NCBI GenBank assembly: GCA_000004985.1
Contig: GG739266.1
From: Naegleria gruberi
Lineage: Eukaryota
Length of the DNA stretch: 2,375 nt
Strand: one strand, 5' to 3'
In this document: piece after piece, positions 1 through 2,375 of the stretch
Layout: every line of letters starts with the position of its first letter
Position numbering within the stretch: position 1 is the first letter of the stretch
Translations under genes and position numbers: made by a program
Notes under the pieces: model-generated
What the model saw: only the letters and a program-made list of their open reading frames with translations
Databases searched by the model: none
What the model was told of the DNA's origin: nothing

Positions 1-164
1 ACTTCTGAAACTCCAACACCTCAACCAGAACCAGTTGTTAAATGTGGATCACTGAAGATGAAATAACTGTTATGGAAATGGTACTTGCATCAATGGTGTC
101 TGTGCTTGTAATTCAAACGTAAATGGTACATATTGCAATGAAACAAATTCTGATTCTCCAACCT
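1..164 (+). pseudogene. Frameshifted, degenerate copy of the repeat unit, near-identical to 561-743. It is either a decayed unit at the 5' edge of the array or an assembly or sequencing lesion.
   Basis: Positions 1-47 are identical to 561-607 and 1560-1606 and read TSETPTPQPEPVVKCG in frame 1. Relative to the sister copy at 561-743 there are four indels. 'ggtatcact' becomes 'ggatcact' (a 1-nt loss near 48). 'gatgagaataac' becomes 'gatgaaataac' (a 1-nt loss near 63). 'ccaacagaacc' becomes 'ccaacctgaacc' (a 1-nt gain near 163). 'atcaaatgtgg' becomes 'atttgtgg' (a 3-nt loss near 175). As a result the unit reads in frame 1 up to 47, in frame 2 from 65 to 163 (NCYGNGTCINGVCACNSNVNGTYCNETNSDSPT, then TGA at 164-166), and in frame 3 from 165 onward. 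Frame 1 ends in TAA at 64-66 and frame 3 has TAA at 120-122. None of the indel sites is a homopolymer. Confidence 0.45.
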
Positions 165-2375
165 GAACCAATTATTTGTGGTACAACTGAGGAAGAAAGC
201 AATTGTTATGGTAACGGCACATGTCTTGATGGATTGTGCATCTGTGTTGAGGGTATGAACGGAACATACTGTAATGAAACAACTGCTTCAGAACCTCAAA
301 TTCCAACTGAACCAGTTAAATGTGGATCAACCATTGAAGAAAATAATTGTTATGGAAATGGAACATGCGTAAATGGTATTTGTATTTGCAACTCTAATGT
401 AAATGGAACATACTGTAATGAAACAACTGCTTCAGATCCTCAAATTCCAACTGAACCAGTTAAATGTGGATCAAGTATTGAAGAAAATACTTGTTATGGA
501 AATGGAACTTGCATCAATGGTATTTGTATTTGTAATACAAACGTTAATGGAACCTTCTGTAATGAGACTTCTGAAACTCCAACACCTCAACCAGAACCAG
601 TTGTTAAATGTGGTATCACTGAAGATGAGAATAACTGTTATGGAAATGGTACTTGCATCAATGGTGTCTGTGCTTGTAATTCAAACGTAAATGGCACATA
701 TTGCAATGAAACAAATTCTGAATCTCCAACAGAACCAATAATCAAATGTGGTTTCACTGAAGATGAGAATAATTGTTATGGAAATGGTACCTGTATTGAT
801 GGAATTTGTGTTTGTTACGGAAGTGCAAATGGCACATTCTGTAATGCAACAGAAACAAAGATACCAGGTCAAACAGAACAAATTAACTGTGGTATAACTA
901 TAGATGAGAACACTTGTTACGGAAATGGTACTTGCATCAATGGTGTTTGTAATTGTGATGTTGGTGTGAATGGCACTTATTGTAATGAAACAACACATGA
1001 GCCTCAACCAGAACCTGTTGTTAAATGTGGTTTCACTGAAGATGAGAATAATTGTTATGGAAATGGAACTTGTTTGAGTGGTGTCTGTATTTGTAATTCA
1101 AACATTAATGGTACATATTGCAATGAAACAAATACAGAACCAGTTACTCCAGAACCAGAACCTGTCAAATGTGGTGAAACATTGGAAGAAAATAACTGTT
1201 ACGGAAATGGAACCTGTTTAAATGGTATTTGTGTTTGTAAGTCAAACATTAATGGTACATATTGCAATGAAACTACATCAGAACCAGTTATCCCACAACC
1301 AGTACCAATTAAATGTGGTGAAACATTGGAAGAAAATACTTGTTATGGAAATGGTACATGTGTAAATGGTATTTGTATTTGCAACTCTAATGTAAACGGT
1401 ACTTTCTGTAATGAAACAACTCCAGAAACTCCAATTCCACAACCTGAACCAATTAAATGTGGAACAACCATTGAGGAAAATAGTTGTTATGGAAATGGAA
1501 CATGTGTAAATGGTATTTGTATTTGTAATACAAACGTTAATGGTACATTCTGTAATGAAACTTCTGAAACTCCAACACCTCAACCAGAACCAGTTGTTAA
1601 ATGTGGTTTCACTGAAGATGAGAATATTTGTTACGGAAATGGAACTTGCATTAATGGTATTTGTGTTTGTAATTCAAACATTAATGGTACATATTGCAAT
1701 GAAACTACATCAGAACCAGTTATCCCACAACCAGTACCAATTAAATGTGGTGAAACATTGGAAGAAAATACTTGTTATGGAAATGGTACATGTGTAAATG
1801 GTATTTGTATTTGCAACTCTAATGTAAACGGTACTTTCTGTAATGAAACAACTCCAGAAACTCAAATTCCAACTGAACCAGTTAAATGTGGATCAACCAT
1901 TGAAGAAAATAATTGTTATGGAAATGGAACTTGCATGAATGGTATTTGTGTTTGTATTACCAACGTTAATGGAACCTTCTGTAATGAAACAAGTCATGAG
2001 CCTCAACCAGAACCTGTTGTTAAATGTGGTTTCACTGAAGATGAGAATAATTGTTATGGAAATGGAACTTGTTTGAATGGTGTCTGTATTTGTAATTCAA
2101 ACATTAATGGTACATATTGCAATGAAACAACATCAGAACCAGTTACTCCACAACCTGAACCAATTAAATGTGGTGAAACATTGGAAGAAAATACCTGTTA
2201 TGGAAATGGTACATGTGTAAATGGTATTTGTATTTGCAACTCTAATGTAAACGGAACATTCTGTAATGAAACAACTCCAGAAACTCCAATTCCCCAACCT
2301 GAACCAATTAAATGTGGATCAACCATTGAGGAAAATAGTTGTTATGGAAATGGAACATGTGTAAATGGTATTTGT
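123..2375 (+). CDS. Partial CDS: the 3' end runs off the window and the 5' boundary is unreliable. The product is a secreted or surface-type protein made of about 15 tandem EGF-like cysteine-rich modules separated by Pro/Thr/Glu-rich linkers, and it is probably heavily N- and O-glycosylated.
   Basis: I translated the + strand by hand with codon starts divisible by 3. After the TAA at 120-122 there is no stop through 2375, about 750 codons. About 15.5 units of 46-48 aa follow, each with six Cys at EGF-like spacing: KC-x9-C(YGNGT)C-x4-C-x-C-x8-C then NET. The unit period is always a multiple of 3 (144, 141 or 138 nt), so the frame holds across the array. Differences between copies are often synonymous (tgt/tgc, tat/tac, ggt/gga/ggc, aat/aac), consistent with purifying selection on the protein. 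The ATG at 123-125 is only the first in-frame Met. It falls inside repeat sequence read out of frame (the 'aaatggtacat' of an NGT motif), and MVHIAMKQILIL... is not a convincing signal peptide. The repeat frame is properly restored only from about 165 (gaa cca att att tgt ggt). The true start is therefore probably upstream of the window, or the 5' copy is defective. Confidence 0.78.
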   Translation, partial: MVHIAMKQILILQPEPIICGTTEEESNCYGNGTCLDGLCICVEGMNGTYCNETTASEPQIPTEPVKCGSTIEENNCYGNGTCVNGICICNSNVNGTYCNETTASDPQIPTEPVKCGSSIEENTCYGNGTCINGICICNTNVNGTFCNETSETPTPQPEPVVKCGITEDENNCYGNGTCINGVCACNSNVNGTYCNETNSESPTEPIIKCGFTEDENNCYGNGTCIDGICVCYGSANGTFCNATETKIPGQTEQINCGITIDENTCYGNGTCINGVCNCDVGVNGTYCNETTHEPQPEPVVKCGFTEDENNCYGNGTCLSGVCICNSNINGTYCNETNTEPVTPEPEPVKCGETLEENNCYGNGTCLNGICVCKSNINGTYCNETTSEPVIPQPVPIKCGETLEENTCYGNGTCVNGICICNSNVNGTFCNETTPETPIPQPEPIKCGTTIEENSCYGNGTCVNGICICNTNVNGTFCNETSETPTPQPEPVVKCGFTEDENICYGNGTCINGICVCNSNINGTYCNETTSEPVIPQPVPIKCGETLEENTCYGNGTCVNGICICNSNVNGTFCNETTPETQIPTEPVKCGSTIEENNCYGNGTCMNGICVCITNVNGTFCNETSHEPQPEPVVKCGFTEDENNCYGNGTCLNGVCICNSNINGTYCNETTSEPVTPQPEPIKCGETLEENTCYGNGTCVNGICICNSNVNGTFCNETTPETPIPQPEPIKCGSTIEENSCYGNGTCVNGIC
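1221..1430 (+). repeat. Higher-order repeat copy A of the 432-nt (three-unit) super-period.
   Basis: The roughly 210-nt block 1221-1430 recurs at 1653-1862, an offset of exactly 432 nt, with a single mismatch that I could find (aag at 1238-1240 versus aat at 1670-1672). Unit types cycle as FTEDEN, ETLEEN, (S/T)TIEEN through 1023-2375. Confidence 0.9.
1653..1862 (+). repeat. Higher-order repeat copy B of the 432-nt super-period.
   Basis: Near-identical to 1221-1430 (see above). The linker 'ccaattccacaacctgaacca' in copy A is replaced by 'caaattccaactgaacca' after the block ends. Confidence 0.9.

What the first reader, a model, noticed from the sequence alone, without database searches (positions are those of the whole stretch)
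1023..2375. Near-perfect 432-nt, three-unit higher-order repeat in the 3' half, pointing to recent expansion or gene conversion and probable copy-number instability
Units fall into three sequence types: KCGFTEDEN..NSNINGTYC, KCGETLEEN..NSNVNGTFC and KCG(S/T)TIEEN..NTNVNGTFC. These cycle with a 432-nt period (for example 1599, 1743 and 1884, then 2022, 2166 and 2310). Blocks of about 210 nt are identical apart from one base (1221-1430 versus 1653-1862), and 2166-2300 repeats the same unit again. Units in the 5' half (174-1022) differ from each other at many more positions. This gradient is the signature of concerted evolution by unequal crossing-over in a tandem array. Such arrays commonly vary in copy number between strains and are often collapsed in short-read assemblies, so the true gene may contain more units than shown here.
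Basis: seen in the sequence. Interest (0 to 1): 0.5.

Follow-up and report, generated by a model that had tools for sequence, protein, structure and literature searches.

The report
Recently reshuffled EGF-like coding repeat array
The window is one long open reading frame made of about 17 tandem 144-base units, each encoding a small cysteine-rich EGF-like module plus a proline/threonine linker; its 3' half carries a real but irregular three-unit super-repeat built from patches of almost identical DNA, which is the ordinary footprint of recombination between repeats in a repetitive surface-protein gene.

Summary
The three unit types exist. A column-shuffled null gives blocks of at most 54 nt.

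The repeat is not a near-perfect 432-nt repeat:
- Same-type spacing is 576, then 423 nt. An extra chimeric unit (U08, 1167-1310: E-type 5' end, F-type 3' end) sits in the first copy.
- Whole super-repeat copies are 89-96% identical. Only patches of 70-217 nt are near-perfect.
- The patches lie on many diagonals (144, 423, 432, 568, 855, 993, 999, 1566).
- Some patches reach into the supposedly diverged 5' half.

Different unit types are old (dS about 1) and under purifying selection (dN/dS about 0.19). U09 and U12, two units of the same type, have dS = 0. Breakpoints fall inside units. This supports repeated gene conversion or unequal exchange on an old array. Copy-number instability and assembly collapse are plausible but untestable here.

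The protein is a heavily N-glycosylatable EGF-bead array, probably from an unsampled AT-rich eukaryote, with no close relative in any collection searched. The phenomenon is ordinary, so interest is low.

The parts
1..39 (+). 3' linker fragment of a unit that lies upstream of the window (encodes TSETPTPQPEPVV in frame 1)
   Evidence: Identical to 567-605 and 1560-1598 in the alignment; translation.
40..173 (+). U00: a damaged copy of unit U04 (97% identical). It carries three single-base indels that shift the frame from 1 to 3 to 2 and back to 3.
   Evidence: Alignment and translations. Block 62-153 is close to 630-721, with 1 mismatch in 92 nt.
165..2375 (+). Open reading frame of 737 codons in frame 3. 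It runs off the 3' end of the window and encodes the EGF-like module and linker array.
   Evidence: Translation. Pfam EGF_Teneurin scores 176.7 bits in 15 stretches, E = 7.5e-53, and EGF_2 E = 4.1e-38. Other frames are full of stop codons. dN/dS is about 0.19.
174..1022 (+). Units U01-U06 (starts 174, 318, 462, 606, 744, 885). These are the more diverged 5' units, with no three-type cycle. U01, U05 and U06 have no close partner.
   Evidence: Identity matrix, best partners. Triplet 174-605 vs 606-1022 is 67% identical.
1023..1598 (+). Super-repeat copy 1, four units (576 nt): U07 (F), U08 (E/F chimera), U09 (E), U10 (T)
   Evidence: Without U08 it is 96.3% identical to copy 3.
1167..1310 (+). 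U08, a chimeric unit. The first ~54 nt are E-type (KCGETLEENN). The remaining ~90 nt are F-type and match U11 apart from one base.
   Evidence: Painting. Maximum chi-square breakpoint test gives p about 0.001. Split trees give 83% and 100% bootstrap.
1599..2021 (+). Super-repeat copy 2, three units (423 nt): U11 (F), U12 (E), U13 (S)
   Evidence: It is 89.4% identical to 1167-1598 and 92.1% to copy 3.
2022..2375 (+). Super-repeat copy 3, cut by the window end: U14 (F), U15 (E), U16 (S, first 66 nt only)
1221..1431 (+). Near-identical tract, upstream copy. It equals 1653-1863 at lag 432 with 1 mismatch in 211 nt. It starts in mid-unit (U08/U11) and ends in mid-unit (U09/U12).
1653..1863 (+). 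Near-identical tract, downstream copy of 1221-1431. Most of it (1666-1863) also matches 2089-2286 at lag 423 with 8 mismatches in 198 nt.
1304..1520 (+). Near-identical tract that matches 2159-2375 at lag 855 with 5 mismatches in 217 nt. The match runs to the end of the window.
996..1131 (+). Near-identical tract that matches 1995-2130 at lag 999 with 1 mismatch in 136 nt. It spans the end of a linker plus three quarters of an F unit.
516..633 (+). 5'-half tract that matches 1509-1626 at lag 993 with 4 mismatches in 118 nt. It shows recent exchange between the two halves.
295..364 (+). 5'-half tract identical to 1861-1930 at lag 1566 (0 mismatches in 70 nt)
   Evidence: The U13/U02 breakpoint test gives p about 0.005.

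Best explanation
The window is an internal piece of a protein-coding tandem array.

Each unit of 138-144 nt encodes a six-cysteine EGF-like module of the tenascin/teneurin type. The cysteine spacing is C-x9-C-x5-C-x4-C-x-C-x8-C. Each module has three invariant N-x-T glycosylation sequons and is followed by a Pro/Thr/Glu-rich linker of about 12-14 residues. The most likely product is the stalk of a secreted or surface glycoprotein of an AT-rich eukaryote.

The units are old and kept by purifying selection. A set of recent homologous-recombination events is superimposed on them: gene conversion, synthesis-dependent strand annealing (SDSA) or unequal sister-chromatid exchange between misaligned units. 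These events copied tracts of 70-217 nt between units of the same type. They also propagated an F-E-S triplet three times in the 3' half.

At least one exchange was out of register by one unit. It joined the 5' end of an E unit to the 3' part of an F unit, created the chimera U08 and added 144 nt. This is why the first period is 576 nt and not about 430.

Shown here: the coding nature of the array, the domain type, the unit types, the near-identical tracts, the breakpoints and the chimera.

Inferred, not shown: the recombination mechanism, the direction of transfer, the cellular location of the protein, and copy-number variability.
For: - The ORF is open for 737 codons in a sequence with 14.5% GC at third codon positions, while the other frames are full of stops.
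- Pfam EGF_Teneurin, EGF_integrin and EGF_2 all score far above their cut-offs in 13-15 stretches.
- Six Cys, YGNGT, NGT and N-x-T are invariant across all 15 full units.
- There are 46 N-x-T sequons, against 16.8 +/- 3.5 in shuffles.
- Median between-unit dS is about 1.0, dN about 0.19 and omega about 0.19. U09-U12 has dS = 0.
- Near-identical tracts occur at lags 432, 855, 423, 999, 993, 568, 1566 and 144. They are far longer than the column-shuffle null allows (maximum 54 nt against 211 nt).
- Breakpoints inside units are significant.
- Trees group units by type, and U08 changes clade between its 5' and 3' parts.
- Copy 1 without U08 is 96.3% identical to copy 3.
- All unit length differences are multiples of 3 (138/141/144).
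- The closest hits in the library, P0003 (named 'Eukaryota sp. TZLM1-RC') and P0006 (Guillardia), also carry strings of identical EGF-like repeats. Such homogenised EGF arrays are therefore common.
Against: - Only one sequence is available. There is no orthologue, second isolate or read data, so real recombination history cannot be separated from an assembly that took wrong paths between near-identical repeats.
- Three frameshifting indels lie in the first 165 nt. They show that at least part of the window is either low-quality sequence or a decaying gene.
- The window starts and ends inside the array, as collapsed-repeat contigs do.
- The EGF fold could not be confirmed structurally (pLDDT 48 and 56).
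- No signal peptide, anchor or non-repeat domain lies in the window, so the extracellular location rests on the domain type and the sequons alone.
Confidence: 0.75

Rival explanations
1. Assembly artefact. The mosaic of near-identical tracts and the chimeric unit were produced by an assembler jumping between near-identical repeats of a longer or differently ordered array. The window is a short repeat-only contig whose internal order is unreliable.
For: - The window is only 2375 nt and begins and ends inside the array.
- Identical tracts of 136-217 nt exceed usual k-mer sizes.
- Three single-base indels cluster in the first 165 nt and none occur in the remaining 2210 nt. This looks like a poorly supported contig end.
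Against: - The reading frame is intact through every junction for 2211 nt, and all length differences are multiples of 3.
- The tracts carry a few private differences, 12 synonymous and 8 non-synonymous, rather than being exact copies.
- The sequence shared by U08 and U11 just upstream of the U08 junction is only about 17 nt (flanks). That is short for a graph mis-join.
Confidence: 0.15
2. One simple recent tandem duplication (replication slippage) of a three-unit block of about 430 nt, with no gene conversion. This is the clean higher-order-repeat expansion implied by the first reader's title.
For: - There are strong diagonals at lags 423 and 432.
- Tandem Repeats Finder reports a 423-nt period.
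- Mean unit-lag-3 identity is 0.89.
Against: - Identity along the lag-432 diagonal is not uniform. There is 1 mismatch in 211 nt, then a drop to ordinary between-unit levels on both sides (flanks).
- Non-adjacent copies 1 and 3 are the most alike, at 96.3% against 89-92%.
- Tracts also occur at lags 568, 993 and 1566 and link to the 5' half.
- The period changes from 576 to 423.
Confidence: 0.05
3. The three-type cycle is a functional super-repeat kept by selection on the protein, as in the super-repeats of titin or nebulin, and not a by-product of recent DNA exchange.
For: - The three types are old, with dS about 1 between units of different type, and they differ mainly in the C1-C2 loop (FTEDEN / ETLEEN / STIEEN).
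- The order F-E-S recurs three times.
Against: - Same-type units are identical at synonymous sites as well (dS = 0 for U09-U12). Protein-level selection does not explain that.
- The 5' half has no cycle (S, S, I, F, I).
- The first cycle tolerates an extra chimeric unit.
Confidence: 0.05

Closest known systems
Tenascin/teneurin-type EGF-like repeats (Pfam PF23106 EGF_Teneurin, PF18720 EGF_Tenascin, PF07974 EGF_2)
   Same: There are six cysteines with the C2-x5-C3-x4-C4-x-C5-x8-C6 spacing. The G-x-G-x-C / G-x-C-x-C core is present. Pfam scores are far above the gathering cut-offs in 13-15 stretches. The solved-structure sequence search also finds Reelin and Notch EGF modules.
   Different: - The C1-C2 loop has 9 residues instead of about 3.
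- Modules are separated by Pro/Thr/Glu linkers of 12-14 residues rather than being contiguous.
- There are three invariant N-x-T sequons per module.
- No other tenascin or teneurin domain lies in the window.
- The best match in 1.84 billion representative proteins is only 38% identical, E = 6e-11.
Higher-order repeats of satellite DNA (for example alpha-satellite)
   Same: Adjacent monomers are 71-83% identical, while monomers three units apart are up to 98% identical. This gives extra diagonals at multiples of the monomer length.
   Different: - The array is coding and under purifying selection.
- Only about three copies are present.
- The period is not constant (576 then 423).
- Copies are 89-96% identical, not 95-100%.
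- Homogenised tracts are short patches at several lags.
Intragenic coding minisatellites of cell-surface and secreted proteins, such as yeast FLO/adhesin genes, mucins, apolipoprotein(a) kringle IV-2 and parasite surface antigens (own knowledge, not tested here)
   Same: Long in-frame tandem repeats encode a glycosylated extracellular stalk. DNA-level near-identity between repeats makes them substrates for unequal recombination and conversion.
   Different: Copy-number variation, which is the defining behaviour of those genes, could not be examined here. The module is a folded EGF-like domain and not a low-complexity Ser/Thr repeat.
Protist proteins with homogenised EGF arrays found here: P0003 (KAL0208212.1, named 'Eukaryota sp. 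TZLM1-RC') and P0006 (Guillardia theta EKX44402.1)
   Same: They carry strings of identical or nearly identical EGF-like repeats, each with a short acidic/Pro linker.
   Different: They are only 30-45% identical to the window protein over EGF cores, and their unit lengths and domain contexts differ. They are analogues, not orthologues.

Membership tests
EGF-like domain (Pfam EGF_Teneurin PF23106 / EGF_2 PF07974) | Profile score above the curated gathering cut-off | tested here: met
   EGF_Teneurin scores 176.7 bits against a cut-off of 24.3, in 15 stretches. EGF_2 scores 129.9 against 22.1, in 13 stretches.
EGF-like domain (Pfam EGF_Teneurin PF23106 / EGF_2 PF07974) | Six conserved cysteines with EGF spacing in every unit | tested here: met
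   C2, C11, C17, C22, C24 and C33 are invariant in all 15 full units.
EGF-like domain (Pfam EGF_Teneurin PF23106 / EGF_2 PF07974) | EGF fold with 1-3, 2-4, 5-6 disulfide topology | tested here: inconclusive
   The AlphaFold2 models have pLDDT 48 (single sequence) and 56 (15-unit alignment). Only the central beta-hairpin appears. Confidence was too low for a fold search, so none was run.
Tenascin or teneurin proteins (family membership of the whole protein) | Contiguous EGF array together with FN3 and fibrinogen domains (tenascin), or a transmembrane segment and YD-shell domains (teneurin) | not testable with these tools
   The window holds only repeats and runs off both ends. The EGF modules here are not contiguous but separated by linkers, unlike tenascin arrays. 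The best database match is 38% identical. There is no basis for membership.
Higher-order repeat (HOR) array | Monomers within a copy clearly diverged from one another | tested here: met
   Adjacent-unit identity in the 3' half is 0.71-0.83.
Higher-order repeat (HOR) array | Successive multi-monomer copies much more alike than monomers, typically at least 95% over their whole length | tested here: inconclusive
   Whole-copy identities are 89.4%, 92.1% and 96.3%. Near-perfect identity is confined to tracts of 70-217 nt.
Higher-order repeat (HOR) array | Constant period over the array | tested here: not met
   F-to-F spacing is 576 and then 423 nt. The other same-type offsets are 432, 432 and 429, then 423 and 426. 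Tandem Repeats Finder gives period 423 with 79% matches.
Concerted evolution by gene conversion or unequal crossing-over | Mosaic similarity with significant breakpoints, including chimeric units | tested here: met
   Maximum chi-square tests give p = 0.001-0.005 for four unit pairs. U08 switches clade between its 5' and 3' parts. The longest tract is 211 nt against a null maximum of 54 nt.
Concerted evolution by gene conversion or unequal crossing-over | Repeats within a genome more alike than orthologous repeats between species | not testable with these tools
   No related locus was found in the viral, metagenome or genome contigs, or in the phage records.
Copy-number-variable coding minisatellite | Different unit numbers between isolates or assemblies | not testable with these tools
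   No second copy of the locus is available.

The most novel reading that the evidence does not exclude
The array belongs to a lineage-specific, heavily N-glycosylated surface protein made of EGF modules strung on linkers. Its owner would be a eukaryote (or a virus of one) absent from current sequence collections. The ongoing out-of-register exchanges would be used to vary stalk length or module order between cells or strains, as a contingency locus for adhesion or immune or predator evasion.
Probability: 0.12. Interest if true: 0.45.

Novelty: new member of a known kind. Interest (0 to 1): 0.2.

Why it matters
The main value is practical. The locus is a repeat-only fragment whose true length and unit order should not be trusted without long reads. 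Any gene model built on it will be partial.

Biologically it is one more example of a repetitive EGF-like glycoprotein gene homogenised by recombination. The chimeric unit U08 is a clear marker of an out-of-register exchange.

The only unusual point is that the protein has no relative above 38% identity among 1.84 billion representative sequences. That says more about the unsampled source organism than about a new mechanism.

Tried and rejected
1. Source and relatives. Exact 41-45-mers from the window were absent from viral, JGI metagenome and GTDB genome contigs.
   - A degenerate CYGNGTC..C.C pattern gave nothing in the metagenome or viral contigs.
   - In genome contigs it gave one hit, in a Clostridium genome, whose frame has stops. 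This is a chance match.
   - Protein-guided locus searches in viral contigs found nothing, with either the sequence or the unit profile.
   - blastn against the phage records found nothing.
2. Protein homology. The word-indexed search gave one weak hit. The exhaustive HMMER search gave 37 weak hits, the best at E = 6e-11 and 38% identity. The named ones are generic EGF-repeat proteins of diverse eukaryotes. No orthologue was found, so the taxon remains unknown.
   - A ciliate code with TAA/TAG read as Gln looks unlikely, because all 14 Gln codons are CAA and the frame has no TAA or TAG.
3. Structure. Both AlphaFold2 runs were of low confidence, so no fold search was made.
4. RNA. There were no Rfam matches.
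5. Minus strand. Only short ORFs of up to 108 aa lie antisense to the repeats. They were not pursued.
6. The ATG at 121 (MVHIAMKQILILQPEP...) was considered as a start codon and rejected. It lies inside a sequence 97% identical to a coding unit and has no signal-peptide character.
7. Two literature searches returned only general work on tandem repeats. Nothing was specific to this protein.
Full report
WHAT THE WINDOW IS

Frame 3 is open from position 165 to the end of the window, 737 codons. The other two forward frames are broken by stops every few dozen codons. The minus strand has only short antisense ORFs.

Unit starts, marked by A-A/T-N-TGTGG, lie at 40, 174, 318, 462, 606, 744, 885, 1023, 1167, 1311, 1455, 1599, 1743, 1884, 2022, 2166 and 2310. 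That gives 17 units of 138, 141 or 144 nt, plus a linker fragment at 1-39. I call them U00 to U16.

Each unit encodes K-C-G-x-T-x-E-E-N-x-C-Y-G-N-G-T-C-x-N-G-x-C-x-C-N-S-N-V-N-G-T-x-C-N-E-T followed by a Pro/Thr/Glu-rich linker. Six Cys, YGNGT, NGT and the N/T of N-x-T are invariant in all 15 complete units.

Pfam places the units in the tenascin/teneurin kind of EGF-like domain. EGF_Teneurin gives E = 7.5e-53 in 15 stretches, EGF_integrin 4.2e-39 and EGF_2 4.1e-38. Reelin and Notch EGF modules are the only solved-structure matches with E below 0.1, and they are weak.

The protein has 46 N-x-T sequons and no N-x-S, against 16.8 +/- 3.5 N-x-S/T in composition shuffles. GC at third codon positions is 14.5%.

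Together these point to a glycosylated extracellular stalk of EGF modules strung on linkers in an AT-rich eukaryote. The location and the host are inferences, because the window contains nothing but repeats.

CHECKING THE OBSERVATION

The key block is real: 1221-1431 equals 1653-1863 except 1241 G / 1673 T.

It is far beyond chance. When bases are shuffled within alignment columns among units, the longest block with at most one mismatch averages 37 nt and never exceeds 54 nt in 200 shuffles. The observed block is 211 nt.

In the 3' half, mean unit identity is 0.77 at unit-lag 1, 0.76 at lag 2, 0.89 at lag 3, 0.78 at lag 4, 0.86 at lag 6 and 0.87 at lag 7. A quantitative dot-plot (50-nt windows, at most 2 mismatches) has its strongest diagonals at lags 855, 423, 432, 993 and 999, ahead of 144.

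Neighbour-joining trees group units by position in the cycle. E {U09, U12, U15} has 99% bootstrap, F {U07, U14, U08, U11} 90%, and S {U03, U10, U13} 86%.

The order in the 3' half is F (U07), E/F (U08), E (U09), T (U10), F (U11), E (U12), S (U13), F (U14), E (U15), S (U16). Successive F units are therefore 576 and then 423 nt apart. An offset of 432 holds only between U08/U09 and U11/U12.

Tandem Repeats Finder reports a 423-nt period with 79% matches, against 71% for the 144-nt period. Ungapped identity of the 3' half is 0.546 at lag 432 and 0.503 at lag 423, but 0.867 at lag 999.

Whole super-repeat copies are not near-perfect. 1167-1598 vs 1599-2021 is 89.4% identical, and 1599-2021 vs 2022-2375 is 92.1%. 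The non-adjacent copies 1 and 3, once U08 is removed, share 342 of 355 columns, or 96.3%.

The near-perfect parts are tracts:
- 1304-1520 / 2159-2375: 5 mismatches in 217 nt, lag 855.
- 1221-1431 / 1653-1863: 1 in 211, lag 432.
- 1666-1863 / 2089-2286: 8 in 198, lag 423.
- 996-1131 / 1995-2130: 1 in 136, lag 999.
- 516-633 / 1509-1626: 4 in 118, lag 993.
- 62-153 / 630-721: 1 in 92, lag 568.
- 295-364 / 1861-1930: 0 in 70, lag 1566.
- 261-330 / 405-474: 1 in 70, lag 144.

Four of these eight tracts involve the 5' half, and two of them link it to the 3' half. The proposed gradient is therefore only partly true. U01, U05 and U06 have no partner above 77%. U02, U03 and U04 have partners at 95% (the truncated U16), 92% and 97%.

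WHAT PRODUCED THE PATTERN

Nei-Gojobori estimates over all unit pairs give median dS about 1.0, dN about 0.19 and omega about 0.19. The units are ancient duplicates kept by selection on the protein. Yet U09 and U12, two units of the same type, have dS = 0. The near-identity is therefore a matter of DNA recency and not of protein constraint.

Inside the near-identical tracts the few differences are 12 synonymous and 8 non-synonymous.

Similarity changes partner within units. A sliding 36-column painting shows this for several units:
- U08 is closest to E-type U15 in its first windows and to U11 in the last ~90 nt.
- U14 follows U07 for 109 nt and then U08/U11.
- U13 starts as U02 and continues as U03.
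- U10 starts as U16 and ends as U03.

Maximum chi-square tests with permutation support these breakpoints:
- U08/U11: p about 0.001.
- U07/U14: p about 0.0015, with 1 difference in 109 nt and then 8 in 35.
- U13/U02: p about 0.005, with 0 in 47 and then 23 in 88.
- U09/U12: p about 0.003.

Split trees make U08 a demonstrable chimera. It groups with the E units in columns 1-54 (83%) and with U11 in columns 55-150 (100%).

My reading of the first copy is an inference. It has a backbone like copy 3, with U07 close to U14, and the U09 tail plus U10 close to the U15 tail plus U16. A 211-nt tract from copy 2 was copied into this backbone. The tract entered out of register, with an E unit at offset 54 joined to an F unit at offset 55. 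It left in register, within the E unit at offset 121. The net gain was one unit of 144 nt.

Repair of a break by misaligned strand invasion (SDSA), or an unequal sister-chromatid exchange followed by a second exchange, would both produce this result. One sequence cannot separate the two.

A single clean duplication of about 430 nt does not fit, for three reasons. Identity along the lag-432 diagonal collapses on both sides of the tract (flanks). Copies 1 and 3 are the closest pair. Tracts occur on eight different diagonals.

CAVEATS

The first unit, U00 (40-173), is a 97% copy of U04. It differs by three single-base indels, near positions 51, 65 and 160, plus a 3-nt gap. The coding frame therefore goes from 1 to 3 to 2 and back to 3 within 165 nt.

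Three indels against three substitutions in this unit, and none in the following 2210 nt, is odd for natural decay. It suits a poorly supported contig end, although a pseudogenised edge of the array is not excluded.

The window starts and ends inside the array and is short. It may be a repeat-only contig. I give an assembly-chimera explanation of the mosaic about 15%.

Against the assembly-chimera reading, the frame is intact through all junctions, all length changes are multiples of three, and the tracts carry private substitutions.

COMPARISON WITH WHAT IS KNOWN

No close relative exists in the collections searched:
- Exact strings are absent from viral, metagenome and genome contigs.
- Degenerate motif scans gave nothing except one chance match in a Clostridium genome.
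- Protein-guided locus searches in viral contigs and blastn against phage records were empty.
- The word-indexed protein search gave one weak hit.
- The exhaustive HMMER scan of 1.84 billion representatives gave 37 hits, the best at E = 6e-11 and 38% identity.

The hits that carry a name are all eukaryotic: Guillardia, a sea cucumber, EukProt protist transcriptomes and a record named 'Eukaryota sp. TZLM1-RC'. Several are themselves strings of identical EGF-like repeats. Homogenised EGF arrays are therefore commonplace.

Structure prediction was uninformative (pLDDT 48 and 56). Rfam found nothing.

The module qualifies as an EGF-like domain by profile and by cysteine pattern. Membership of the tenascin or teneurin protein families cannot be claimed.

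As a higher-order repeat the array meets the 'diverged monomers' criterion. It only partly meets 'highly similar copies' and fails 'constant period'.

The behaviour expected of coding minisatellites in surface proteins, copy-number variation, is plausible from general knowledge but untested here.

VERDICT

This is a real and statistically solid repeat structure whose description needs correcting. It is an irregular three-unit cycle built from short, recently exchanged tracts, and it contains one chimeric extra unit.

The specific picture of a near-perfect 432-nt repeat does not. The claims of instability and assembly collapse remain untested.

The phenomenon is ordinary for repetitive extracellular protein genes. 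Interest is about 0.2, and the finding is a new member of a known kind.

Noticed in passing
window 40-173 (indels near 51, 65, 160): The first unit is a 97% copy of U04 (606-743) but carries three single-base indels that break the reading frame. The next 2210 nt have none. This is either a low-quality contig end or a pseudogenised edge of the array.
   Followed up: partly
window 165-2375, frame 3: There are 46 N-x-T glycosylation sequons and no N-x-S, three per unit and invariant across units that are saturated at synonymous sites. U05 keeps the third sequon as N-A-T although the middle residue changed. This suggests the sequons themselves are under selection.
   Followed up: partly
whole window: The sequence is absent from all contig collections searched. 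The encoded protein has no relative above 38% identity among 1.84 billion representative proteins. The source organism is probably an unsampled AT-rich eukaryote (GC at third codon positions 14.5%, all 14 Gln codons CAA, all 11 Phe codons TTC).
   Followed up: partly
window 1-46, 567-612, 1560-1605: The same 46-nt junction (linker TSETPTPQPEPVV followed by KCG) occurs three times without a mismatch. Each time it lies between an S/T-type unit (upstream of the window for the first copy) and an I/F-type unit. Linker types travel together with the unit that follows them.
   Followed up: partly
window 174-317, 744-884, 885-1022: Units U01, U05 and U06 are the only ones without a close partner (best 72-77%). 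They have altered C5-C6 loops (VEGMNGT, YGSANGT, DVGVNGT). They look like old units that escaped recent homogenisation.
   Followed up: no
window 121-165: An in-frame ATG at 121 would give MVHIAMKQILILQPEP... ahead of the first intact unit. It lies inside repeat-derived sequence and has no signal-peptide character, so it is probably not a real start.
   Followed up: no
L001 2519-2560 (Clostridium sp. C105KSO13, NZ_FBWL01000169.1): This was the only genome-collection match to the degenerate CYGNGTC..G.C.C pattern. Stop codons lie close on both sides of the match in that frame, and the flanks show no repeat array. It is a chance match.
   Followed up: yes
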